Assembly: GCA_028717805.1 (NCBI GenBank)
Contig: JAQUNC010000005.1
Location: forward strand, 1,238 to 65,237
From: Atribacterota bacterium
Lineage (GTDB): Bacteria; Atribacterota; Phoenicimicrobiia; Phoenicimicrobiales; Stramentimicrobiaceae
Length of the DNA: 64,000 nt
Direction of reading: 5' to 3'
Below the pieces are notes generated by a model, which did not search any database, was not told where the DNA came from, and was given only the letters and a program-made list of their open reading frames with translations. Made by a program: the position numbers and the translations under genes. Each line of letters starts with the position of its first letter. The first letter of the stretch is position 1. Of this stretch, positions 1,564 through 60,669 are shown piece after piece.

Positions 1564-1595
1564 ATATTTAGTATTATTGAAATTTTAAAAATGCG

Positions 1596-1625
1596 ATACT
1601 CAAGGGGAATAATTCCCTGGAGTAT
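1596..1625 (+). repeat. GC-rich hairpin element, copy F (ATACTCAAGGGGAATAATTCCCTGGAGTAT)
   Basis: CAAGGGGAA/TTCCCTG core nested in an ATACTC/GAGTAT outer stem, 26 nt upstream of the S4-protein gene. Confidence 0.4.
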
Positions 1626-10406: not shown

Positions 10407-12263
10407 TTGAATAAACAATTATTATCAATAATTTTAGCTATTTCATTAATAATGGGAATGGGAGCCATGGTTACTGCTCAGATCCCTAATCCCGATAGAA
10501 TTGTTTATGCCTTGATTGGCGGGCCGGAAACTATGGATCCTCATTGGAGTTATGACACAGCAAGTGGTGAAGTTATTTTCCAGGTTTACGATAACCTGAT
10601 TGCTTATGATGGAGAGAGTATTGAAAAATTTGTACCAATGCTCGCCTTACAAGTACCTTCAGCCGATAATGGATTAATCAAATATGGTGGTTTAGACTAT
10701 ATCTTCCCCATTAGATACGGTGTTCGTTTCCATAATGGGGAAATTATGACACCAGAGGATGTGGAATACAGTTTTGAAAGAGGTATGATCTTTGATCGTG
10801 CTGGGGGTCCCTGTTGGATGTTGTTAGAACCGCTTTTAGGGATCATTAGTATCGAAGAACTTGCTGTTGAACTAGCTGGTGTAGAAAATTATGCTGATAT
10901 GTTTAATGAAGATGGTGAGCTATTACCTGAATATGAAGAGGCCATGATTAAAGTCTATACTGATTATGTGGATAGGGCAGTGGAGGTTCAAGGCAATAAT
11001 GTTGTCTTTCATTTAGCCCAACCATATGCGCCGTTTTTGAATATCCTGGCTCATGGTGGTGGATGGTCGTCCATTATCAGTAAAAAATGGTCTATCGAAC
11101 AGGGTGCTTGGGATCATCAAGCAGATACCTGGTGGAATTATCATGATCCACAAAATGAGGAGGATCCACTATATAGTATAGCAAACGGTACCGGTCCCTT
11201 TAAATTGGTAAGATGGGTTCCAGAAGAAACTATCATGCTGGAGAGATTTGATGATCATTGGAGAGGACCTGCTAAGTTAAAAGAGGTTGTCTATCAGTAT
11301 ATTAATGAGTGGACTACCCGGAAGCTAATGCTGCAGAGGGGTGATGCAGATATCTGCTATGTCCCGGTAACCAATATGAACGAAGTGGAAGCTATGGAAG
11401 AAACTGAACTGATCACTGGTTTACCTCAATTATCTAATGTTGTAACAAATATGCCCTGGCTGCTAAATGCTGAAGGTAATGCTAATTTAGGAAGTGGTAA
11501 ATTAGATGGAGAGGGAATTCCGCCTGATTTCTTCTCGGATATTCATGTTCGAAGAGGATTTTCCTACTTGTTCCCCTATGATATTAATATCGAAAAATCA
11601 ATGCAGGGACAGGCAAAACGTAATCCCGGACCATTTCCTGATCCATTGTATGGTTACACAGAAGATCCAGAATTATACTTTGAATTTGATATAGCAAAGG
11701 CAACAGAGGAATTCAAGTTAGCCTGGGGTGGAGAGCTCTGGGAAAAGGGTTGCAAATTCAATATCTTCTACAATGAAGGGAATGATGTCCGTAAAAATGT
11801 TTGTGATATGCTTTCTACCTATGCCAGAATGGTGAATCCCAAGTTCGAGCTTACCTCGGTCGGTGTGCAGTGGTCATCCTACCTGAAACAGTTCCTAGCC
11901 GAACAACTTCCCATGTACACCATCGGTTGGCTGGCGGATTATCCCCATCCTCACAACTGGGCACCCACTTACCTGGGGAGCAATGGGACATACAGTGCTT
12001 ATTACGGAAAGACATATGTAGATTGGGCAAAAGAGAATATAGATCCGCTTATCGAGAAGGCACTGAAATCAGTTGATCCGGAAGAGCAGAAGAACATCTA
12101 TGAAGAATTGACCAGAATGGCTCATGAACAGGCTGTGGCGCTCTATCTATACCAGCCTATCGGAATCCATGTCCAGAGAGACTGGGTTAAGGGGTGGTAC
12201 TATAATCCGATAATATCTGGTATGCCGCAAGGTGCTGATTTCTACTATATTTACAAAGAGTAA
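10407..12263 (+). CDS. ABC transporter substrate-binding protein, family 5 (oligopeptide/dipeptide/nickel type)
   Basis: Signal peptide (MNKQLLSIILAISLIMGMGAMVTAQ) and a 618-aa SBP_bac_5-like sequence. It is followed by two permeases and two ATPases. Confidence 0.85.
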   Translation: MNKQLLSIILAISLIMGMGAMVTAQIPNPDRIVYALIGGPETMDPHWSYDTASGEVIFQVYDNLIAYDGESIEKFVPMLALQVPSADNGLIKYGGLDYIFPIRYGVRFHNGEIMTPEDVEYSFERGMIFDRAGGPCWMLLEPLLGIISIEELAVELAGVENYADMFNEDGELLPEYEEAMIKVYTDYVDRAVEVQGNNVVFHLAQPYAPFLNILAHGGGWSSIISKKWSIEQGAWDHQADTWWNYHDPQNEEDPLYSIANGTGPFKLVRWVPEETIMLERFDDHWRGPAKLKEVVYQYINEWTTRKLMLQRGDADICYVPVTNMNEVEAMEETELITGLPQLSNVVTNMPWLLNAEGNANLGSGKLDGEGIPPDFFSDIHVRRGFSYLFPYDINIEKSMQGQAKRNPGPFPDPLYGYTEDPELYFEFDIAKATEEFKLAWGGELWEKGCKFNIFYNEGNDVRKNVCDMLSTYARMVNPKFELTSVGVQWSSYLKQFLAEQLPMYTIGWLADYPHPHNWAPTYLGSNGTYSAYYGKTYVDWAKENIDPLIEKALKSVDPEEQKNIYEELTRMAHEQAVALYLYQPIGIHVQRDWVKGWYYNPIISGMPQGADFYYIYKE

Positions 12264-12625: not shown

Positions 12626-13663
12626 ATGTTATCTTATATTATAAGACGTCTCTTGATGCTGCCTTTAATTCTATTAGGAGTAAGCTTCCTGATATTCTGT
12701 CTTTTTTCGCTGTTAAGTCCCATGGAGAGATTGGCAACCTATATTAACGATCCTAGTGTCCTGAAAAATCCACAGGCAGCTCAGCGGTTGATTGATAAGT
12801 ATCATCTGGATGATCAATTTCCTGCTGGCTATATTTATTGGCTGAAGTCGTTAGTAAAGCTTGATTTTGGCTGGTCTCCCACTGCCAATCAACCGGTCTG
12901 GGAGGCTATTATGCAACGTTTTCCGGCAACTTTAGAATTAGTTTTCTATTCCATTATACCGGTTATTCTGGTGGGAATCTGGTTAGGTGTTATCTCTGCG
13001 GTCCATCATAATAATTTACTGGATCAGACTATCAGGGTAACGGCTATAATTGGCTGGTCCTTACCAACCTTTATCTTTGGCTTATTAGTATTATTTATCT
13101 TTTATGGCATATTGGGATGGTTGCCACCCGGAAGGTTAAGTACCTGGGCACAATATGTTGTATATAGCGGTGATAGTTTTAAGAATTACACCTATTTTAT
13201 TACTATTGATGCTCTTTTAAATGGACGTCTCGATATTTTCTGGGATGCCATAAAGCATTTAATTGGACCAATTATTACCCTCTCTTATATTAACTGGGCT
13301 TATTTACTTAGAATTACCCGTTCTAGTATGCTGGAAACTCTGAGAAAAGATTATATCCGTACTGCTCGAGCTAAGGGAGTAGATGAAAAAAGTGTTATCC
13401 ATCAGCACGCCCGAAAGAATGCTCTAATACCTGTAGTAACAGTAGCCGGAATGATGATTGTTCAAATGCTGGGGGGTGTGGTTATCACTGAGACAGTATT
13501 TACCTATCCTGGACTGGGTTTTTGGGCTGCTTCTTCTGCGCAGCAATTGGATTATGGATCAGTCATTGGATTTGCTCTATTATTTGCCTTTATGATGGTA
13601 ATAGGCAATTTATTTGTAGATATTTCTTACGCTTTAATTGATCCCCGGGTTAGATTGGAGTGA
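12626..13663 (+). CDS. ABC transporter permease (OppB/DppB-like)
   Basis: Multi-TM protein with the EAA-like permease motif region (IRTARAKGVDEKSVI...) of the BPD_transp_1 family. Confidence 0.9.
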   Translation: MLSYIIRRLLMLPLILLGVSFLIFCLFSLLSPMERLATYINDPSVLKNPQAAQRLIDKYHLDDQFPAGYIYWLKSLVKLDFGWSPTANQPVWEAIMQRFPATLELVFYSIIPVILVGIWLGVISAVHHNNLLDQTIRVTAIIGWSLPTFIFGLLVLFIFYGILGWLPPGRLSTWAQYVVYSGDSFKNYTYFITIDALLNGRLDIFWDAIKHLIGPIITLSYINWAYLLRITRSSMLETLRKDYIRTARAKGVDEKSVIHQHARKNALIPVVTVAGMMIVQMLGGVVITETVFTYPGLGFWAASSAQQLDYGSVIGFALLFAFMMVIGNLFVDISYALIDPRVRLE

Positions 13664-14606
13664 TAACAAAATGTATAGAATAATTAAGAAATTACTGAGT
13701 AACACAACTTCGCTGATAGGTTTATTACTTCTTCTAATATTTGTTCTTATCGCTATTTTTGCTCCCTATATTGCTCCTCCTTTATTTCCCGATCCTTATC
13801 AAATACCTCGTATGTCCTGGGATGTAGAACCACAGCCACCAGGATTTCCCATCTCTGATGATATGAGATATATCTATGAAAGTTTGGGACAACCTATTAC
13901 CAGGGATAAAGCGATTTTTGGTACTGCCCAGGGTGGTTATGATATATTTTACGGATTAATCTGGGGAACCAGAACAGCGTTTCGTGTTGGGATTATCACT
14001 GTGACTTGTTCTATGTTAATTGGTCTTATTGGGGGTTCAATTGCCGCTTATTTTGGCGGTTGGATAGATGAATTGTTAATGCGTTTAACTGATATCTTTT
14101 TATCCATTCCCTTTTTAGTTGCGGCAATGGTTTTGACTACAATTTTAGGAAGAGGCTTGGACAAGGTAATGATAGCACTTATTGCCTTTGGCTGGATGGG
14201 ATATAGCAGGGTCATAAGAGGAAGTATTTTGTGTACCAAAGAAGAGATATATGTTATGGCAGCCAAAGCTTTAGGAGTAAAAGATTTCCGTATCATTTTC
14301 TTTCATTTACTACCCAATACCATTTTCCCAGTGTTAGTTCAGGCAAGCATGAATATCGGTTCAATGGTAGTTACTGCTGCAGCTCTCAGCTTTTTAGGAG
14401 TTGGAGCTCCTTTAGGATATGCAGATTGGGGTCAAATGGTTAGTTTTGCTCGTAATTGGATTATTGGTTCACCAGGGAAGGCTGGAGAATATTGGTATGC
14501 GGTATTTTTTCCCGGGATATTTATAGTTTTATTTGTCCTTTCCTGGAATTTAGTAGGAGATACCCTGAGAGATATTTTTGATCCGCGTCTGAGGGGTGAA
14601 TTATGA
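13638..14606 (+). CDS. ABC transporter permease (OppC/DppC-like)
   Basis: BPD_transp_1 family. The probable start is the ATG at 13671 (MYRIIKK), which overlaps the previous stop. Confidence 0.9.
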   Translation: MIPGLDWSDNKMYRIIKKLLSNTTSLIGLLLLLIFVLIAIFAPYIAPPLFPDPYQIPRMSWDVEPQPPGFPISDDMRYIYESLGQPITRDKAIFGTAQGGYDIFYGLIWGTRTAFRVGIITVTCSMLIGLIGGSIAAYFGGWIDELLMRLTDIFLSIPFLVAAMVLTTILGRGLDKVMIALIAFGWMGYSRVIRGSILCTKEEIYVMAAKALGVKDFRIIFFHLLPNTIFPVLVQASMNIGSMVVTAAALSFLGVGAPLGYADWGQMVSFARNWIIGSPGKAGEYWYAVFFPGIFIVLFVLSWNLVGDTLRDIFDPRLRGEL

Positions 14607-15640
14607 TGAGAGATAATAATAAGCAGACAGTACTGCAGGTAAAAAATCTAAAGACCCACTTTTTTACAGAAAATGGAATTGTAAAAGCTGTTGATGGTGT
14701 TGATTTTGAAGTATATCAAGGGGAAACTCTGGGATTGGTTGGTGAATCAGGTTGCGGTAAAAGTGTTACTGCTTTTTCTATTGTTAGATTACTGGATTAT
14801 CCCGGCAAGACAGTTGAAGGTCAAATTGTCTTTAAAGGGGATGATTTACTTAAAAAAAGCGATAACCAGATGCGAAAAATAAGGGGAAAAGAGATTGCCA
14901 TGATTTTTCAGGAACCCATGACTTCTTTAAATCCTGTTTTTTCTATCGGTTATCAAATTTCTGAATCTTTAAAAATACATTATAAAATGAGTAATCAAGA
15001 AGCTAGAAATAAGGCAATTGATCTTTTAGAAAAGGTAGGAATACCTATTCCACAACAACGGGTAGATGAGTATCCCCATCAATTAAGTGGAGGAATGAGG
15101 CAGAGAGCTATGATTGCTATGGCTTTAGCTTGTGATCCGATTTTGCTTATTGCGGATGAGCCAACCACATCTTTAGATGTTACTATTCAAGCTCAGATAT
15201 TAGATTTGATGAAAAACCTTTTACAGCAGTTTAACAGCTCATTAATTATGATTACACATGATTTAGGAGTAATAGCTGAGATTGCTGATCGTATCGCTGT
15301 TATGTATGCTGGTAAGATTGTGGAATATGCTGACACCCGTTCGATATTTTTTTCTCCTCTCCATCCTTATACCTTTGGCTTGCTTACTTCTATACCAAGA
15401 TTAGATTTAGATTTAGAAAAGTTAGAATCAATACCTGGTATAGTGCCGGACCCGCTACATTTCCCTTTGGGATGCAAGTTTCATCCCCGTTGTATTTTTG
15501 CTACTGAGAAATGTAAGAAGGAAGAGCCATTGCTGGAAAGAATTGAAGATAATCATATGATTCGTTGCTGGTATGTGGATAGAGTAAAAGAAGAAGCGGA
15601 AAAGATTTCCTTTAGCAAGAGGTTAACAGCAGTTGAATAA
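14603..15640 (+). CDS. Oligopeptide/dipeptide ABC transporter ATP-binding protein (OppD/DppD-like)
   Basis: Walker A GESGCGKS, signature LSGGMRQR, Walker B LLIADEPTTSLD, plus the C-terminal Opp-type extension with Cys motifs. Confidence 0.92.
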   Translation: MMRDNNKQTVLQVKNLKTHFFTENGIVKAVDGVDFEVYQGETLGLVGESGCGKSVTAFSIVRLLDYPGKTVEGQIVFKGDDLLKKSDNQMRKIRGKEIAMIFQEPMTSLNPVFSIGYQISESLKIHYKMSNQEARNKAIDLLEKVGIPIPQQRVDEYPHQLSGGMRQRAMIAMALACDPILLIADEPTTSLDVTIQAQILDLMKNLLQQFNSSLIMITHDLGVIAEIADRIAVMYAGKIVEYADTRSIFFSPLHPYTFGLLTSIPRLDLDLEKLESIPGIVPDPLHFPLGCKFHPRCIFATEKCKKEEPLLERIEDNHMIRCWYVDRVKEEAEKISFSKRLTAVE

Positions 15641-16598
15641 TCAATTAATATCGGTGAGAAATTTAATTAAATATTTTCCCATTAAAAAAGGTGTCTTTAG
15701 AAGAACGGTAGGCTGGATTAAAGCAGTTGATAATATTAACTTTGATATTTATAATGGGGAAACTCTGGGTCTGGTTGGTGAGTCAGGATGCGGTAAATCA
15801 ACCACTGCTCTAACCATTCTCCGTTTAGAGGAACCTACCGCTGGAGAAATTATATTTCAGGGGAAAAACATTACCAGAGTAAATAAAAAGCAGATGAGAA
15901 GCTATAGAAAGGATTTACAGATTATATTTCAGGATCCCTATAGTTCTCTTGATCCCAGGATGAAGATAAAGAATATTATAGCTGAGGGATTAGTTACCCA
16001 CAACCTGTTAGATAATAGAACAAGAACAAAAAGAGTCAGAGAGTTATTAGAAAGAGTAGGGATACCGCCTGATTATATGGATCGTTTTCCACATGAGTTT
16101 AGTGGTGGACAAAGGCAAAGAATAGGAATTGCCCGTGCTTTAGCCTTAAATCCCAAAATAATAATTTGCGATGAAGCTGTATCAGCACTGGATGTATCTA
16201 TCCGATCGCAAATAATTAATTTATTTAAAGAATTACAAAAGGAATTTAATCTTACCTACCTATTTATTGCTCATGATTTAAGTGTTATCAAGTATATCAG
16301 TGATAGGGTTGCAGTGATGTATTTAGGTAAGATTGTAGAAATTGCACCTAAAAATATATTTTTTGATAATACTCTTCACCCTTATGCCCAGGCGCTGGTA
16401 TCTGCAGTTCCGGTTCCCAATCCTGATTTCAAGAGAAAACGAATTTTATTAAAGGGTGATGTACCCAGTCCGGCTAATCCTCCAACAGGCTGCCGTTTTC
16501 ATCCCAGATGCCAGAAAGTGATGGAAGTTTGCTCCAATGTGGAACCCCAGTTAAAAGAAATAGAGAAGGGACACTTTGTATCCTGCCACCATTATTAA
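15633..16598 (+). CDS. Oligopeptide/dipeptide ABC transporter ATP-binding protein (OppF/DppF-like)
   Basis: Walker [10 protein letters not shown], signature FSGGQRQR, Walker [13 protein letters not shown]. Confidence 0.92.
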
Positions 16599-16848
16599 TT
16601 ATTAAACAAATAATCTACTTAAACTAATGATATTGTAACTAAAATTAATTATTCTGTAATAATGTATTTGTTATCAAATTGTTAATCCATATTTTTTATG
16701 TTAAAATAATTGGCAAAAGAATTTTTGAAATTATATTTACTTGGTAAAATTTTTGATAAAATATCAGCAACACATTATTTTTATTATCAAGATGAACTGA
16801 AAACCAAAAACGCAATACAAACAACGCACTACTATATACTAATTAATT

Positions 16849-16886
16849 GAGGGGTTTCAGGGGATACTTCCCCTGACAATATCATG
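16849..16886 (+). repeat. GC-rich hairpin element, copy A (GGGGTTTCAGGGGA-TAC-TTCCCCTGACAATATCATG)
   Basis: Perfect 8-bp inverted repeat TCAGGGGA/TCCCCTGA in an AT-rich spacer 12 nt upstream of tRNA-Arg. Its flanks are shared with copies B through F. Confidence 0.5.
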
Positions 16887-21881: not shown

Positions 21882-22100
21882 CTGCCAAAGGAACAGAACC
21901 AAGAATTAATATTATTTTTTGAGGTTGTTTGAAAAAAATAAATAATTAGTGATAAAATATGATTGAGCTTATAATATAAATAAATTCTGGCTTAAAGTAA
22001 ACCCATCTTAATCTATATTTAACTGGATAAGGATTTTTATTAACTTTATAAAAAAGAAGACATTAAAGGAATTAATAAATATTAAGCTCGTGATTGACTT

Positions 22101-22139
22101 AGGGGTTCTCAAGGGGAATTCTTCCCCTTGAATATCCTG
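22101..22139 (+). repeat. GC-rich hairpin element, copy B (AGGGGTTCTCAAGGGGAATTCTTCCCCTTGAATATCCTG)
   Basis: Inverted repeat CAAGGGGAA/TTCCCCTTG; 5' GGGGTT and 3' AATATCCTG flanks as in copy A. It lies 67 nt upstream of rpoN. Confidence 0.5.
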
Positions 22140-22205
22140 TAGATAAGTTAGTCTCATTGAAATAATAACAAAATGTTTATTTATAATTAGTTAGAGGGTA
22201 TTTTA

Positions 22206-24716: not shown

Positions 24717-24841
24717 TATTAAGTCATTAAGATTATATAGATAACCTAATATAACATAAAAATCACATGAAAAATAGAATGTGAATTCATAGCCTCACCT
24801 TAGAGGTGGGGCTATGAATAATTTGAGCAGGAGGATTTTAA

Positions 24842-27393: not shown

Positions 27394-27836
27394 TAGATTC
27401 TATTTTAAGAGAAATTAAAATTTTATTTATAATGATAGTTAGGAAGGGGACATTGGTGCCCTTTTTATTTTTTGTTTTACTATTTAAAGATTAAGATAGA
27501 TAAGGTCAAAATTTTTACTGGAAGGAAGTAAGAAGAAAGAGAAAATAATGACTGAAGAGATGCGGTATAAGATAGACAGAAATCAAGAGAAAAAGAGAAT
27601 AAAAAATTTTGCTAAAGAAATTGCATCATCCAGTAAAAATGTGCTATACTTTTGCCAGTGTTTTGTAAAATAGAAATGAATCTTAAATTTGTAAGAAAGA
27701 TATATTTTGGTAAGTTCTTTAACAAATCTATTTTGGTAATAAAAAATAGCAAAACAACAATAAATCAAAGATTTTATTGATAAACCTTACCCATTATAGT
27801 CAATCAATAAATACAGACCTATAGCGAGGTGATGTA

Positions 27837-34481: not shown

Positions 34482-35485
34482 GTGGGAGCAGTATTTTAAT
34501 CTTTATTCTCAAAATTGTTAGCGCTCTAATAATTGCTGTAATTGGTATATTGGTAGGTTTATTCTATAAAGGCATTGATCGTAAATTAGCTGCTATGATG
34601 CAATCCCGGGTAGGACCTCCGGTTAGACAGCCTTTTCTTGATTTTTTTAAGCTAATGATAAAGGAAAATATCGTTCCCGAAAATGCTATTCCCTGGATTT
34701 TTAATGGTGCACCAATGCTAGCTCTGGTTTCCACAATTACCATTTTATTTTATATTCCTTATGGTTCGCTACCAGCATTGTTTGGAAATTCTGGTGATTT
34801 GATATTAATTGCCTATCTGCTGGCTATACCAGCAATTGCCCTGGTAGCTGGTGGTTTTTCTTCAGGATCTACTTATGCCAGTATTGGAGCACAAAGAGAG
34901 ATGGTTTTGATGATGAGTTATGAACTCCCTCTGGTTACTACCATTGTTGCTTTAGGGTGGAGATTAAATTTGGCCTACCCCGGATTAAAGGTTTTTTCCT
35001 TAGCAGTTTTAAGTGCTAATCCTATCTGGAGTTTAGTTGGCCCGCTGGGTTTTATTGGCGCCATATTGTTGCTCTTTACCTTAGCTATTGTAACTCCAGC
35101 AGAGTTATCCATTGTTCCTTTTGATATTCCTGAAGCAGAAACCGAACTGGCAGGAGGCATCTTGGTGGAGTATTCTGGTCGAAATTTAGCCTTATTTGAA
35201 CTGGCTAATGCAGTAAAAATGATAGTAATGGGAGCCTTGACTGTTGTTTTATTTTTCCCATATAATATTGCCCATTTATTTTCATTAAATGGCTTCTTTG
35301 CCTATATTGTCGATACGTTATTCTTTTTCTTTAAATTATTCATTGTCATATTCTTTGAAGCAACCTTTATTAGAGTTGCTATAGCACGTTTAAAAATTGA
35401 TCAAGCTTCAGTTGCTTATTTAGTATTTCTTTCTATAGTTGGTTTGATGGGTTTATTATTGATAGCTATTGATTATATTATCTAA
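34478..35485 (+). CDS. NuoH-like membrane subunit (MbhM)
   Basis: 335 aa with 8 TM helices; NuoH/HycD/EchB family. Confidence 0.85.
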   Translation: MSGSSILIFILKIVSALIIAVIGILVGLFYKGIDRKLAAMMQSRVGPPVRQPFLDFFKLMIKENIVPENAIPWIFNGAPMLALVSTITILFYIPYGSLPALFGNSGDLILIAYLLAIPAIALVAGGFSSGSTYASIGAQREMVLMMSYELPLVTTIVALGWRLNLAYPGLKVFSLAVLSANPIWSLVGPLGFIGAILLLFTLAIVTPAELSIVPFDIPEAETELAGGILVEYSGRNLALFELANAVKMIVMGALTVVLFFPYNIAHLFSLNGFFAYIVDTLFFFFKLFIVIFFEATFIRVAIARLKIDQASVAYLVFLSIVGLMGLLLIAIDYII

Positions 35486-35568
35486 TATCGAAATTTCTTT
35501 GAAGTTTTGATATTGCTAAAGATAATTTATTTACATAATCTATATAGAAGAAGTGTTCAGATATTCCT

Positions 35569-35597
35569 AAGGGGAAGAATTCCCTAGGGATATCCTG
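35569..35597 (+). repeat. GC-rich hairpin element, copy C (AAGGGGAAGAATTCCCTAGGGATATCCTG)
   Basis: AGGGGAA...TTCCCT inverted repeat with the shared 3' GATATCCTG tail. It sits inside the 217-nt gap between mbhM and mbhN. Confidence 0.4.
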
Positions 35598-36973: not shown

Positions 36974-37430
36974 TGAAAAAGTATTCCTTAATCTTTAAAA
37001 ATTTAAATATTTTATAATTAAGTTCCTAACTTATATTATCATCGAGTCTATGCTAATATAATATCATAAAAATAAGGGTATGTAGATTATGGTTATTGTA
37101 CTATAGTAGTCCTGTTTGAATAAAGCTGCAAAAAAGTAAATCAGAACTGTAATGAAAGAATGTATTATAGAACATAACTCAAATATGATATTGTAATAAC
37201 ATAATATTGAGGTTTAATTAAACTATAATATTTACTATTGGAGCAATGATTATAAAAAGTTGCAGTAAAGCACAAAGGATTGTAATATTATATTATAATA
37301 AAGATATAATTTCCTTTTGTTGTTTGAATCATATACTCTGAATGTTTTTAAAACAGAATTTTCTAATAATATTATCGGGTAAAGTTTGACAAAAAATCAA
37401 TATGGATTTAAAAAATAGACAGAAGGATGG

Positions 37431-37458
37431 TAGGGGGGAATATCCCCTGACTATTTTG
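37431..37458 (+). repeat. GC-rich hairpin element, copy D (TAGGGGGGAATATCCCCTGACTATTTTG)
   Basis: GGGGGAATATCCCC hairpin with a TGAC tail, 21 nt upstream of the SPOR gene. Confidence 0.4.
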
Positions 37459-57427: not shown

Positions 57428-57603
57428 ACTGCCAACTGCATTTGTTCTTATATTGCTATTGAGTCAATTTTATGAGATTCTTTTATAAATTAAAAGATAG
57501 GAAGGAAAACAAGAGTTTTACCACTAACCTTTTAGGAGATTTTCTTATTTTTCCTATAGGAATTATTATGCATTCCTTTTTACTACCTGCTTTCTGATGT
57601 GAG

Positions 57604-58887
57604 CTAGTACAGATATCTAAAGTAGAAATAGATTGAAACTACAAACAGGTCAATAATGACTAAGGGGAAAGCAATCTTAAAAAAATGCCAGAAGTAAATA
57701 GGTTGATTATTTTTTTCTGCAATTTCAGCCACGATTAAATTTGAAGCTGTCCCGATTAGGGTGCCATTGGCGCCAATATTTGCACCCAAGGCTACAGTAA
57801 TCCAGATAACCGGAGCAGTAGCAGGAAATTCTTTGACAATATGTTCAATGATAGGAATGGCAATACTAACAATAGGTATATTATCTAAAAATGAAGAGAG
57901 AAAAGTAGTTGATATTAGAAATAAATAATCAAGATATTGAAAATTAGCTCTACTTAACTGAATAATTTTATTTGTTAATATACCTATTATTCCGTGTTGT
58001 TCCATGGTACCAGCCAATACATTTAATCCAATCAGAAAAAATATAATTCCCCAATCTATCTGAGAGAGAATAAAATCAGTAGATTTTTCAGGTGTTAAAA
58101 AGAATAGTAGAAGGGAAATAAAAAGAATAATAACTGCCAGATCAACTGCTATTCTATGAGAAAAAAGCATTAGAACAATACCGATAATTACCAGGATTAC
58201 AATTTTTTTGAACAGAATATGATCGGTAATGCATTCACTCTCCTTAACTTCATTTAAGCGTGATAATAGATGTTCCGGTATTTTACTTTCTAATAGTTTT
58301 TTGCTAAAAATGATTTTGAAGTAATAAATATTTACTATGGTGAGAATTACCGCTACCGGCAGAGCATGGTAAATAAAATCAAGATAAGAAAAATGAGCTG
58401 CTGAACCAATCATGATATTTGTTGGTGTTCCTAAGTAAGTAGCCATACCACCTATATTGGCAGAAATAATTTCAGATATCAAGAAAGGCAGGGGAGATAT
58501 TCCCAGGATAGAGGTCAATGCTATAGTAATATTTGCCATAAATAAGACTGTGGTGATTTCATCAAAGAAGGAAGACAGAATCCCAGTTAAGAGGGATAAT
58601 AGAATAAGCAATAGCCAGGGATTCCCATGACTATGTCGCATTACTTTGATTGCTAAAAATTGAAATATCCCGCTATCTTTGGCAATGTTGGTAAAAATTA
58701 TTACCCCGATAATAATACCTAATTTATTAAAATCAATATAACTAATAGCCTTTTCAAAAGAGATGAGGCCGATAAGAATTACTAAAATTGCTCCAAAAAA
58801 AGATGAGGTGGTTCGTATTCGTCGATTGGTAAAAATAAAGAAATAGACTATACTGATAATTATAATGGTTAAAATTAGTTGATTCAT
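57604..58887 (-). CDS. ArsB/NhaD-superfamily (CitMHS-like) ion transporter permease
   Basis: 427 aa with ~12 TM helices arranged as two inverted repeats. It resembles the ArsB/NhaD/CitMHS anion-permease family. Confidence 0.65.
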   Translation of the reverse strand: MNQLILTIIIISIVYFFIFTNRRIRTTSSFFGAILVILIGLISFEKAISYIDFNKLGIIIGVIIFTNIAKDSGIFQFLAIKVMRHSHGNPWLLLILLSLLTGILSSFFDEITTVLFMANITIALTSILGISPLPFLISEIISANIGGMATYLGTPTNIMIGSAAHFSYLDFIYHALPVAVILTIVNIYYFKIIFSKKLLESKIPEHLLSRLNEVKESECITDHILFKKIVILVIIGIVLMLFSHRIAVDLAVIILFISLLLFFLTPEKSTDFILSQIDWGIIFFLIGLNVLAGTMEQHGIIGILTNKIIQLSRANFQYLDYLFLISTTFLSSFLDNIPIVSIAIPIIEHIVKEFPATAPVIWITVALGANIGANGTLIGTASNLIVAEIAEKNNQPIYFWHFFKIAFPLVIIDLFVVSIYFYFRYLY

Positions 58888-59232
58888 GAATCAGAACTCC
58901 ACCTGAGAATCGATTGTGGTTCGACCATAGAATCTTACCTTGCTCTCTTGATTAAAGATAATTTTTATTAATTAGTTTGCCTTATTAGCAGCTATTATTT
59001 TCAAAATAAATATTTACTAAAAATATCAGGCAAATAATATTTCTGGTATATTTTACCTGGAAAAAATCATGAAATTATCAAAGTTAGATTGCTAAATAAA
59101 TGGAATGTATTATATAATTACGCCAGATCCATTTGAGGCTTTGAAATATCGTCTAAAAATATAATAACACAAAAAATCATTTACGGTAGAAAGAAATATT
59201 ATTTTTTTATATTTTAGAAAACATGTTATCAT

Positions 59233-59290
59233 TATTTCATAGTAGGGGAAATTTTTTGAATTTCCCCTACTATGAAATAATCTTTTTTAA
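59233..59290. repeat. Perfect 22-bp-stem palindrome with an AGGGGAA/TTCCCCT core plus a T-tract (orphan terminator-like)
   Basis: TTATTTCATAGTAGGGGAAATT-TTTTG-AATTTCCCCTACTATGAAATAA followed by TCTTTTTTAAA. No gene end lies nearby. Confidence 0.5.
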
Positions 59291-59398
59291 ATAAACTAAA
59301 TAAGGTACAATAATACTATATTTGATTCTAAAGGTATATAATTACTAAAATTGTTATAACTCAGGTATAAATGGAGTTCATTATATAATTATTTAAAA

Positions 59399-59436
59399 CA
59401 AGGTATTCAGGGAAGGTATCCCCTGAAACCCCCCAA
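59399..59436 (-). repeat. GC-rich hairpin element, copy E (reverse orientation: GGGGGGTTTCAGGGGATACCTTCCCTGAATACCTTG)
   Basis: The reverse complement matches copy A almost position-for-position. Confidence 0.5.
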
Positions 59437-59628
59437 AGGAAATAATTTATTTCACTATTGAAAATCACCTTCTTTTAAGGTGTTCATGGCTAAACAAAAC
59501 GGTTTAAGTATCTTAAAAAAACCACCCGTTATACAGGTGAATGTCTATTAATTTATATACCTGAAAAGCAGAAAATTAATGATATATTTATTGTTATAAT
59601 AAAATCTTAACTAAAAGAGGCTCTATAC

Positions 59629-60669
59629 ATGTTCAACTTTTCTCTTTCTCTTGCTCTTTCCCGAAACATTGGTATTGATTTGGGCACCAGTACCACCTTA
59701 GTATATGTAAAGGGAAAGGGGATTATTCTAGAAGAACCTTCCGTAGTGGCTTATCAAAAAAATAGCAATCGTGTTTTGAAAGTGGGAAAAGAAGCAAAGT
59801 CTATGATTGGGAGAACACCGAGAGGTATTTATACTATTCGCCCTTTACAGTATGGCGTGATTGCTAATTTTGAAGTAACTACTGAAATGCTGCGCTATTT
59901 CATTAAAAAAATTTTCGCCCGTTATCAATTTATCAAGCCTTCTATTACTATCTGTGTTCCCTCTGGTGTTACTGAAGTTGAAAAAAGAGCAGTGTCGGAG
60001 GTAGCTTATGAATGTGGTTCACGAAGAGTATTTTTAATTGAAGAGCCTATTGCCGCGGCTATTGGTGCGGGATTGCCTATTTTTGAACCAATGGGTAACT
60101 TAATTATTGATATGGGCGGTGGTACTTCAGAGGTAGCGGTAATTTCTTTGGGAGGGATTGTAGTAAACGAAATAACCAAGGTTGCTGGCGATTATTTGAA
60201 TCAACAAATAATTAAGTATATTAAAGATAACCATGGGCTTTTCATCGGGGATTTAACTGCTGAGGATTTAAAAATTTCACTTTCCAAAAACAACACCCAG
60301 AAAGAACAAGATTATTTTGAGGTAAGAGGCAGAAATCGTCTCAGTGGTTTACCTATTAGAATCAGATTAACCAAGGATGAATTAAAAGAGGCTCTCTATG
60401 ATTCAGTCGAAGTAATAGCCAATACGGTGAAGATGGCTTTAGAAAAAACACCTCCAGAACTTGTTTCTGATATCATAAATAAAGGATTAGTTATGACCGG
60501 AGGGGGAGCCTTGTTATCTGATTTAGATAAAATCCTTCAGGCAAAAATAAAAATTCCTGTTTTTATATCCAAGGAACCACTGTATTGTGTAGTAAAAGGA
60601 ACTGGAGAAGCGTTAGAAAATTTTGACAGATATAATAGGATTCTCATAAGAACTTCCAGGAGTAAATGA
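59629..60669 (+). CDS. mreB: Rod-shape-determining protein MreB
   Basis: Actin-fold motifs IGIDLGTSTT and DMGGGTSEVA. Confidence 0.95.
   Translation: MFNFSLSLALSRNIGIDLGTSTTLVYVKGKGIILEEPSVVAYQKNSNRVLKVGKEAKSMIGRTPRGIYTIRPLQYGVIANFEVTTEMLRYFIKKIFARYQFIKPSITICVPSGVTEVEKRAVSEVAYECGSRRVFLIEEPIAAAIGAGLPIFEPMGNLIIDMGGGTSEVAVISLGGIVVNEITKVAGDYLNQQIIKYIKDNHGLFIGDLTAEDLKISLSKNNTQKEQDYFEVRGRNRLSGLPIRIRLTKDELKEALYDSVEVIANTVKMALEKTPPELVSDIINKGLVMTGGGALLSDLDKILQAKIKIPVFISKEPLYCVVKGTGEALENFDRYNRILIRTSRSK

What the first reader, a model, noticed from the sequence alone, without database searches (positions are those of the whole stretch)
58888..59628. 740-bp non-coding region with an orphan 22-bp perfect hairpin plus U-tract: candidate unannotated sRNA or regulatory leader
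No ORF of 60 aa or more is present. At 59233-59281 sits a perfect 22-bp stem (core AGGGGAA/TTCCCCT, related to the hairpin family) followed by TCTTTTTT, which is a textbook intrinsic terminator. Yet no annotated gene ends nearby; the flanking genes are divergent. A second hairpin lies at 59461-59485 (CACCTT-N-AAGGTG) and element E at 59399-59436. The terminator would fit a short + strand transcript starting around 59.0-59.1 kb, or a minus-strand sRNA starting near 59.45-59.5 kb that includes element E.
Basis: seen in the sequence. Interest (0 to 1): 0.6.

Follow-up and report, generated by a model that had tools for sequence, protein, structure and literature searches.

The report
Terminator hairpin in mreB leader RNA
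Upstream of the cell-shape gene mreB in an uncultured Atribacterota genome, a conserved promoter is followed about 106 bases later by an unusually long, perfectly paired terminator hairpin, so the region most likely makes a short (about 165-base) non-coding leader RNA; this is a plausible new small RNA or attenuator of a familiar kind, not a new type of system.

Summary
The hairpin is a perfect 23-bp stem (59231-59253/59259-59281, 5-nt loop) followed by CTTTTTT. It is by far the longest perfect hairpin in the 64-kb window, inside a 741-bp gap between a minus-strand CitMHS/ArsB-type transporter gene and mreB.

The window is from an Atribacterota MAG. A sigma-70-type promoter, P1 (TTGCTA-N18-TATAAT, 59089-59118), is invariant in eight lineages. 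In relatives with short gaps it lies about 100 nt upstream of mreB, so it is the ancestral mreB promoter.

Hairpins at the same position in two other lineages (L012, L031) keep the pairing through changes on both arms, and keep a downstream U-run. Against a sister haplotype with about 10% neutral divergence, the unit 59089-59300 shows 4 differences in 212 nt and the hairpin none. The remaining 330 nt, including element E, evolves at the neutral rate.

Most likely the hairpin terminates P1 transcripts and gives a leader-derived RNA of about 165 nt. Whether this RNA acts in trans or only attenuates mreB is open. Rfam has no match. Element E belongs to a separate dispersed REP-like hairpin family, of which the big hairpin is not a member. 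The minus-strand sRNA idea is not supported. No expression data were available.

The parts
59089..59118 (+). Promoter P1. The -35 is TTGCTA (59089-59094), the spacer is 18 nt, and the -10 is TATAAT (59113-59118). Predicted transcription start is about 59125.
   Evidence: Best consensus match in the region, 10 of 12. ATTGCTAA and TATATAAT are invariant at fixed spacing in 8 lineages while the spacer sequence varies. In short-gap relatives it lies about 100 nt upstream of the mreB ATG.
59125..59230 (+). AU-rich, weakly structured body of the predicted P1 transcript, which is the former mreB 5' leader.
   Evidence: 3 differences in 106 nt against the sister haplotype, versus 9.6% at four-fold sites. 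Little predicted structure outside the terminator. 78% identical to L012 over 59060-59183.
59158..59177 (+). Conserved leader box ATATAATAACAYAAAAAA. It resembles a -10 element but has no conserved -35. Role unknown.
   Evidence: Present in window, L010, L012, L031, L024 and L027, and partly in L013 and L009.
59231..59281 (+). Perfect 23-bp stem with a 5-nt loop. This is the terminator hairpin.
   Evidence: (I12). No differences from the L010/L019/L030 haplotype. Homologous hairpins with compensatory changes occur in L031 and L012.
59282..59290 (+). U-tract (C + T6, then AA). Predicted 3' end of the P1 RNA is about 59288-59290.
   Evidence: A U-run is also present after the hairpins of L012 (CUUUUU) and L031 (UUCUUU). 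It aligns to an ancestral U-run just upstream of the mreB SD in L024 and L027.
59301..59592 (.). Lineage-specific filler between the terminator and the mreB-proximal promoter. It evolves neutrally.
   Evidence: About 90% identity to the sister haplotype, equal to four-fold sites (Fisher p = 0.82). Absent from short-gap relatives.
59367..59391 (+). Direct-repeat copy (22 of 25) of the P1 spacer and -10 segment 59096-59120. It lacks a -35.
   Evidence: BLAST self-hit, E 0.017. A more extended duplication is not significant.
59399..59436 (-). Element E, a decaying copy of a dispersed REP-like hairpin family.
   Evidence: (I4). 4 differences in 38 nt against L010.
59466..59482 (.). Small 6-bp hairpin, CACCTT-N5-AAGGTG.
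   Evidence: It lies in the neutrally evolving stretch.
59522..59540 (-). Terminator-like hairpin on the minus strand (TCACCTG..GGGTGG + T7).
   Evidence: Its U-run is cut to TTT in L010, so it is not conserved as a terminator.
59593..59601 (+). Candidate mreB-proximal extended -10 (TGtTATAAT), 27 nt upstream of the ATG.
   Evidence: Read directly from the sequence. A TATAAT in a comparable position occurs in L008, L009 and L010. The TG is absent in L010.

Best explanation
The hairpin is an intrinsic (factor-independent) transcription terminator that sits inside what used to be the 5' leader of mreB.

Proposed mechanism:
- Promoter P1 (59089-59118), the ancestral mreB promoter of this Atribacterota clade, starts transcription near 59125.
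- After about 106 nt of AU-rich, weakly structured RNA, the 23-24-bp stem forms and the U6 tract releases the transcript near 59288-59290. The product is a non-coding RNA of about 165 nt.
- No competing structure of comparable strength exists, so termination is probably largely constitutive.
- mreB is then transcribed by residual read-through and/or from a proximal promoter (TGtTATAAT, 59593-59601).
- The 330 nt in between is neutral filler that includes a decaying REP-like element.

How it probably arose (inferred): a roughly 40-nt inverted copy of the ancestral ATTATTTCATAG was inserted, probably by replication template switching, next to a pre-existing U-run upstream of the mreB Shine-Dalgarno sequence.

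Shown:
- The structure.
- Its conservation and compensatory change across lineages.
- Promoter conservation.
- Purifying selection on the unit.

Inferred:
- That P1 fires.
- That the hairpin terminates.
- The length of the RNA.
- Whether the RNA has a function beyond attenuating mreB.
For: - Hairpin: 23-bp perfect stem plus U6 on the + strand only. Energy -32.4 kcal/mol, z = -9.1.
- The genome does use canonical hairpin-plus-U terminators, for example after the gene ending at 12263 and after tRNA-Leu at 27446.
- P1: both hexamers and their spacing are invariant in 8 lineages while the spacer varies. It lies about 100 nt from the mreB ATG in L024, L027 and L013.
- Homologous hairpins follow the conserved TTATTTYATAGUA in L012 and L031. 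Inner pairs in the window read GC GC GC GC AU AU AU, in L031 UA CG GC GC AU AU UA, and in L012 AU/AU GC GC. That is several double changes that keep the pairing. The U.G pairs work only on the + strand RNA.
- The covariance model of the hairpin finds L031 at E = 0.003.
- Selection: 4 of 212 differences in 59089-59300 against 9.6% at four-fold sites (binomial p = 7e-6; Fisher p = 3e-4 against the rest of the gap). 0 of 70 in hairpin plus tail (p = 9e-4).
- With the hairpin removed, the leader aligns to the L024 and L027 leaders across the junction.
- No ATAGTA..TACTAT hairpin occurs elsewhere in about 280 kb of window plus loci.
- Precedents: leader RNAs made by premature termination (PMC7815308, PMC6786874, PMC11394854) and template switching that creates perfect stems (PMC8794818).
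Against: - No transcript data. Promoter and terminator are predictions, and Atribacterota transcription signals are uncharacterised.
- A 23-bp AU-rich stem is much longer than typical terminator stems of 5-14 bp.
- Selection rests on two haplotypes only, and structural covariation on three lineages.
- Outside the box and promoter, the RNA body is poorly conserved between lineages at about 84% MreB identity. That argues against a conserved trans-acting seed.
- Within 59178-59230 the deficit of changes is only marginal (1 difference in 53 nt against about 5 expected; roughly p = 0.03 by a hand binomial estimate from the and 49 counts, not run as a tool call).
- The L031 U-run is weak (UUCUUU).
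- The proximal mreB promoter is weak, and its TG is missing in L010. mreB may therefore still depend on read-through.
Confidence: 0.55

Rival explanations
1. Cis-acting regulated element of mreB. The hairpin would be a conditional attenuator or an RNase III processing and stability site in the P1-mreB mRNA. Some factor (a protein, the ribosome or RNase III) would set how much P1 transcription reaches mreBC. The short RNA would be a by-product.
For: - P1 is the mreB promoter in relatives.
- In L013 an unrelated small hairpin abuts the same U7 run only 45 nt before mreB, with no room for another promoter. This suggests recurrent selection for a hairpin plus U-run in this leader.
- In L031 the hairpin lies 95 nt from mreB.
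- A perfect helix of 22 bp or more is the classical minimal RNase III substrate (my own knowledge; the pnp and rnc leaders are precedents).
- A weak alternative pairing of the left arm with 59128-59148 exists.
Against: - The alternative pairing is -10 kcal/mol against -32 kcal/mol for the terminator.
- No conserved leader peptide. The ATG ORF across the hairpin is absent in L012 and L031.
- In the window 340 nt of neutrally evolving DNA separate the hairpin from mreB.
- No Rfam riboswitch or leader match.
Confidence: 0.22
2. DNA-level palindrome. It would be either a dimeric-regulator operator or a selfish or structural REP-like repeat that happened to land next to a T-run. There would be no RNA function.
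For: - The window carries a dispersed family of GGGGA..TCCCC hairpins in intergenic DNA.
- One such element occupies the same spot in L022 and L023.
- A second hairpin with the same outer stem, TTCATAG/CTATGAA, lies at 24786-24818.
- The covariance model scores both strands, because the sequence is a palindrome.
Against: - The inner stem sequence is not conserved between lineages while the pairing is. An operator would keep its sequence.
- No other ATAGTA..TACTAT copy in about 280 kb.
- The U-run is kept on the + side in three lineages.
- There are U.G pairs that would be C.A mismatches on the other strand.
- The whole promoter-to-terminator unit is under constraint, not just the palindrome.
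Confidence: 0.1
3. Insulator only. The terminator would exist to stop P1 (or transcription from the shared divergent promoter region) from running into the inserted filler and the proximal mreB promoter. The RNA itself would be functionless.
For: - The hairpin and tail are the most constrained part, 0 of 70 differences.
- The RNA body varies strongly between lineages.
Against: - The transcribed body also shows fewer changes than neutral, 3 of 106.
- P1 would be expected to decay if its product were useless, yet it is invariant. It could, however, be retained for the divergent transporter promoter region.
Confidence: 0.12

Closest known systems
Intrinsic (Rho-independent) terminators
   Same: A stem-loop immediately followed by a U-run on the transcribed strand, located downstream of a same-strand promoter.
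   Different: The stem is 23-24 bp and perfect, with only 6 G-C pairs. Typical stems are 5-14 bp and GC-rich. It terminates a leader, not a gene.
5' UTR-derived small RNAs and attenuated leaders made by premature termination (E. coli 5' UTR RNAs, PMC7815308; P. aeruginosa RhlS, PMC6786874; Listeria Rli51, PMC11394854)
   Same: The short RNA shares its promoter with a downstream gene and ends at a terminator in the leader. It could act both in cis and in trans.
   Different: There is no sequence or Rfam relationship. Here the terminator looks constitutive, the gene is separated from it by 340 nt of neutral DNA, and no target or expression data exist.
REP/BIME-type dispersed extragenic palindromes
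   Same: Element E (59399-59436) and its relatives are short, G-rich-core hairpins scattered in intergenic DNA. Near-identical copies occur at non-orthologous loci in different species.
   Different: The 23-bp hairpin itself is locus-specific and inherited vertically, with compensatory change. No RAYT-type transposase was looked for.
RNase III-cleaved leader hairpins (pnp and rnc leaders of E. coli; my own knowledge)
   Same: A long, near-perfect helix of at least two turns in the 5' leader of a housekeeping operon.
   Different: Those are not followed by a U-run. Cleavage here is untested.
Hairpins created or perfected by replication template switching (PMC8794818)
   Same: The right arm is an exact inverted copy of adjacent ancestral sequence. 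Relatives carry imperfect or no stems at the same site.
   Different: The event is inferred from a few AT-rich alignments, not reconstructed on a resolved tree.

Membership tests
Intrinsic terminator | Stable stem-loop | tested here: met
   -32.4 kcal/mol, z = -9.1. 23 perfect pairs.
Intrinsic terminator | U-rich tract within 0-2 nt of the stem on the transcribed strand | tested here: met
   C + U6 at 59282-59288 on the + strand. Not met on the minus strand.
Intrinsic terminator | Lies downstream of a promoter on the same strand | tested here: met
   P1, 10 of 12 consensus matches, invariant in 8 lineages, 112 nt upstream. This is a prediction only.
Intrinsic terminator | RNA 3' ends are produced at the U-tract | not testable with these tools
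   No RNA-seq or Term-seq data were accessible.
Any Rfam family (sRNA, riboswitch, leader) | Covariance-model score at or above the gathering threshold | tested here: not met
   Only tRNAs were found in the window. The region at E up to 10 gave only sub-threshold miRNA-like hairpin hits. Nine related loci gave nothing.
Riboswitch or classical attenuator | Mutually exclusive antiterminator of comparable stability, or a conserved leader peptide | tested here: not met
   Best alternative pairing is -10 kcal/mol against -32 kcal/mol. Small ORFs are not conserved.
Trans-acting sRNA | Own promoter and terminator, not coding | tested here: met
   P1 plus hairpin and U-run. No conserved ORF.
Trans-acting sRNA | Conserved single-stranded seed with identifiable targets | tested here: inconclusive
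   Only the AUAUAAUAACAYAAAAAA box is conserved. The duplex scan against 54 start regions gave no interpretable outlier.
REP-like dispersed hairpin family 'E' (AGGGGAA/TTCCCCT core) | Shared flanks GGGGTTyTCA ... TGAATATCyTG and multiple dispersed copies | tested here: not met
   The big hairpin shares only the 7-nt core. Its homologues have UCGGAA/UUCCGA (L031) or AGGAAA/UUUCCU (L012). There are no other copies. Element E at 59399-59436 does meet this feature.
Structured RNA under selection | Compensatory base-pair changes among homologues | tested here: met
   Three double changes between window and L031 and two between window and L012. Only three lineages were available, so there is no statistical covariation test.

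The most novel reading that the evidence does not exclude
The P1-to-hairpin unit is an independent, trans-acting small RNA gene. It would have been born from the mreB 5' leader when a template-switch inverted duplication created a terminator next to a pre-existing U-run. It would retain the conserved leader box, for example as a decoy for whatever binds that box on mreB mRNA. That would make it the first sRNA candidate described for Atribacterota and a traceable natural example of sRNA birth by terminator gain.
Probability: 0.2. Interest if true: 0.55.

Novelty: new member of a known kind. Interest (0 to 1): 0.35.

Why it matters
If confirmed, this would be a leader-derived small RNA or attenuator in front of the cell-shape operon mreBC of Atribacterota. 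No regulatory RNA has been described for this largely uncultured phylum (one search found no relevant literature).

The comparative series is also useful in itself. It runs from a compact leader, to a leader with a small hairpin, to imperfect long hairpins, to a perfect 23-bp terminator followed by 330 nt of filler. That gives an unusually readable picture of how a terminator, and perhaps an sRNA, can arise inside a 5' UTR.

For annotation, it shows that the 741-bp gap is not empty. It holds one constrained 200-nt unit plus neutral filler.

Tried and rejected
- Rfam: searched at gathering threshold on the window and nine loci, and at E up to 10 on the region. Nothing relevant.
- Same-species contigs L001-L007 are 100% identical in the gap, so they carry no information.
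- Metagenome scan with the P1 pattern returned only the L010-type haplotype (L019) and one chance hit (L018).
- Viral-contig scans: the hairpin gave 0 hits. The E 17-mer gave two GC-rich hits that I judged to be chance.
- Small ORFs: the 21-aa ORF at 59478 is truncated in L010. The 23-aa ORF that crosses the hairpin (59223-59294) lacks an SD, and its ATG is absent in L012 and L031. The 40-aa minus-strand ORF at 59110-59232 looks like AT-rich noise. All rejected as coding.
- Tandem duplication of the whole P1-hairpin unit into 59301-59628: local alignment score 62 against a shuffle mean of 61. Rejected. Only the 25-nt repeat stands.
- Box as a second promoter: no conserved -35 or TG in any lineage. 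Left open.
- Target prediction by duplexfold: long-loop artefacts, uninformative.
- Covariance-model search for paralogues: the only extra hit (35471-35540, E 0.004) is an unrelated AU-rich terminator-like hairpin after a gene end.
- Minus-strand sRNA including E: rejected because of neutral divergence and the missing U-run.

Full report
**Context**

The window matches contig JAQVGP010000007.1 of an Atribacterota MAG, GCA_028696625.1 (relatives are named Atribacterota). GC content is 35%, and 54 of 56 ORFs of 110 aa or more lie on the + strand. The region 58888-59628 lies between a minus-strand CitMHS/ArsB-type transporter gene (57604-58887) and mreB (59629-60669), which is followed by mreC.

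**Observation**

The hairpin is real and larger than reported. It has 23 perfect pairs (59231-59253/59259-59281) and a 5-nt loop, followed by C + T6. The next-longest perfect hairpin in 64 kb has 12 pairs, and shuffles give 9-12. Folding energy is -32.4 kcal/mol, z = -9.1.

No ORF of 60 aa or more is present. The short ORFs are not conserved. Rfam has nothing at gathering level, and only sub-threshold miRNA-like hairpin matches at relaxed level.

**Comparative data**

Seven contigs of the same species are identical in the gap. A sister haplotype (L010, L019, L030; MreB 96% identical) has the same layout.

More distant lineages, with MreB 82-85% identical, were fetched through MreB homologues:
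- L012, L013/14, L024-26, L027-29 and L031 keep the divergent transporter-mreB pair. Their gaps are 629, 334, about 202, about 206 and 262 bp.
- L008, L009 and L015-17 lack the transporter altogether. In these, AMMECR1 is followed directly by mreB.

**Promoter P1**

The best sigma-70-like site in the region is TTGCTA-18-TATAAT at 59089-59118. In an eight-lineage alignment, ATTGCTAA and TATATAAT are invariant at fixed spacing, while the spacer sequence differs in every lineage. That is the footprint of a promoter.

In L024, L027 and L013, P1 lies about 100-130 nt upstream of the mreB start with nothing in between. P1 is therefore the ancestral mreB promoter.

A second conserved island, ATATAATAACAYAAAAAA (window about 59158-59177), follows about 35 nt after the predicted start. 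It looks like a -10 element but has no conserved -35. Its role is open.

**The hairpin is inherited and kept as a structure**

L012 and L031 carry long hairpins at the same place, directly after the conserved TTATTTYATAGUA. Each is followed by a U-run (L012 CUUUUU, L031 UUCUUU).

The table lists the pairs read inward from the conserved AGUA/UACU block.

| Lineage | Inner pairs |
|---|---|
| window | GC GC GC GC AU AU AU |
| L031 | UA CG GC GC AU AU UA |
| L012 | AU (bulge) AU GC GC AU |

So several pairs changed on both sides while the pairing was kept. The U.G pairs in L012 and the window would be C.A mismatches on the other strand.

A covariance model of the window hairpin finds L031 at E = 0.003. 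It finds L012 only weakly, at E = 2.8. No other ATAGTA..TACTAT hairpin exists in about 280 kb of window plus loci, so this is not a dispersed repeat.

Leaders of L024, L027 and L009 are unstructured. L013 has an unrelated 6-bp hairpin that abuts a U7 run.

**Selection**

The comparison is between the window and the L010 haplotype.

| Stretch | Differences or identity |
|---|---|
| Four-fold degenerate sites of six flanking genes | 90.4% identical |
| Three other intergenic regions | 86-88% identical |
| 59089-59300 (P1 to U-tract) | 4 differences in 212 nt |
| Hairpin plus tail | 0 in 70 nt |
| 58888-59088 | 14 in 201 |
| 59301-59628 | 33 in 329, not distinguishable from four-fold sites |

For the unit 59089-59300, binomial p = 7e-6, Fisher p = 3e-4 against the rest of the gap, and p = 6e-5 against four-fold sites. 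For the hairpin plus tail, p = 9e-4.

Only the promoter-to-terminator unit is constrained. Element E, the small hairpin at 59466-59482 and the minus-strand terminator-like hairpin at 59522-59540 drift neutrally. The U-run of the last is cut to TTT in L010.

**Origin (inference)**

With the core and right arm of the hairpin removed, the window leader reads TATCATTATTTCATAG|CTTTTTTAAATAAA. It aligns across the junction to TATAATTATTACAT---TTTTTTAGATAAA(GGAG) of L024 and to the L027 equivalent. Only 1 of 300 and 5 of 300 shuffles reach the observed scores.

The left-arm base and the U-run are therefore older than the hairpin, and they lay just upstream of the mreB SD. The roughly 40-nt insert contains an exact inverted copy of ATTATTTCATAG. 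That is what replication template switching produces (PMC8794818).

A further 330 nt or so now separates the old pre-SD sequence from the present SD.

**Mechanism**

The best reading is that P1 transcripts start near 59125 and end near 59288-59290, giving an AU-rich RNA of about 165 nt with little structure other than the terminator.

The only alternative pairing of the left arm, with 59128-59148, is worth -10 kcal/mol against -32 kcal/mol for the terminator. A classical antiterminator switch is therefore unlikely.

mreB could use the extended -10 TGtTATAAT at 59593-59601. That promoter is weak, and its TG is missing in L010, so read-through from P1 may still matter.

Three outcomes cannot be told apart without RNA data:
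- The short RNA acts in trans.
- The hairpin merely sets mreB expression, as an attenuator or RNase III site.
- The hairpin only insulates.

Leader RNAs of this kind are known elsewhere (PMC7815308, PMC6786874, PMC11394854).

**The 'hairpin family'**

Element E belongs to a dispersed family, GGGGTTyTCA(A)GGGGA-loop-TCCCC(T)TGAATATCyTG. Its copies in the window are at 1595-1625, 16847-16885, 22100-22142, 35559-35595, 37428-37455 and 59399-59436.

A copy 95% identical to 22103-22140 occupies the hairpin's position in the mreB leader of L022 and L023. These are sisters of L031, and P1 has been deleted there. This is REP-like behaviour.

The 23-bp hairpin shares only the 7-nt core with the family, and its homologues lack that core. 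It is not a member.

**Limits**

- There is no expression evidence.
- Promoter and terminator rules for this phylum are assumed from the bacterial consensus.
- Selection rests on two haplotypes, and covariation on three lineages.
- The MreB tree does not resolve whether the hairpin is ancestral with losses or arose within a subclade.
- The caps on genome and metagenome scans prevented wider sampling.

**Verdict**

The + strand short-transcript reading is supported and refined: the RNA is a leader-derived product of the ancestral mreB promoter. The minus-strand reading and the family membership are rejected. This is a new member of a known kind, of moderate interest.

Noticed in passing
window 1595-1625, 16847-16885, 22100-22142, 35559-35595 (-), 37428-37455, 59399-59436 (-); L022 311-348; L023 about 24-60: A dispersed REP-like hairpin family with consensus GGGGTTyTCA(A)GGGGA-loop-TCCCC(T)TGAATATCyTG lies in intergenic DNA. 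One copy is 20 nt upstream of tRNA-Arg(CCT) and another is 79 nt upstream of rpoN. A 95%-identical copy sits at a non-orthologous locus in another species. About six copies in 64 kb would extrapolate to hundreds per genome.
   Followed up: partly
window 24747-24818: A 16-bp hairpin (ATTCATAGCCTCACC-TTA-GAGGTGGGGCTATGAAT) lies between gap and tpiA. It has the same outer stem TTCATAG/CTATGAA as the 59231 hairpin (pattern expected 0.05 times, found twice). A box-like TATAACATAAAAATCA lies 22 nt upstream. There is no U-run, and the tpiA SD follows directly. It may be a paralogous box-plus-hairpin module or an intercistronic stabiliser.
   Followed up: partly
window 57428-58887 versus L008, L009, L015-L017: The CitMHS/ArsB-type transporter gene between AMMECR1 and mreB is present only in lineages with a 346-aa MreB. 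In lineages with a 350-aa MreB, AMMECR1 is followed directly by mreB (gap of 156-304 bp).
   Followed up: partly
window 59028-59035 / 59053-59060 (minus strand): An 8-bp stem lies in the predicted 5' UTR of the transporter (CAGGUAAA..UUUGCCUG). In the window it has a G.U pair that works only on the minus strand. It is perfect in L010 (A to G change).
   Followed up: no
window 59096-59120 and 59367-59391: A 25-nt direct repeat (22 of 25 identical) copies the P1 spacer and -10 into the filler. The copy lacks a -35 and is decaying in L010.
   Followed up: partly
L022 1-300: The mreB upstream region of this Caldatribacteriota MAG is packed with other repeats. GGTATAyCGTATTACGTATAACGTATATCGTT occurs twice and there is a CCTCTCCCTTAGAAGGGAGAGG hairpin. 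Promoter P1 has been deleted, although the sister lineage L031 (MreB 95% identical) keeps it.
   Followed up: no
L005 1-60: A MAG contig of the same species (JAQTVH010000185.1) starts 14 nt upstream of the hairpin. This is probably an assembly break caused by the palindrome.
   Followed up: no
window 14684-14796 and 15720-15832: A 113-nt direct repeat (73% identical) lies inside a run of four alternating 345/322-aa ORFs (12626-16598). These are probably tandemly duplicated gene pairs.
   Followed up: no
L031 327-385 (minus strand): In Atribacteria bacterium 34_868 the homologous hairpin is flanked by U-runs on both strands (CCUUUUU on the minus strand). It could therefore act as a bidirectional terminator there.
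   Followed up: no
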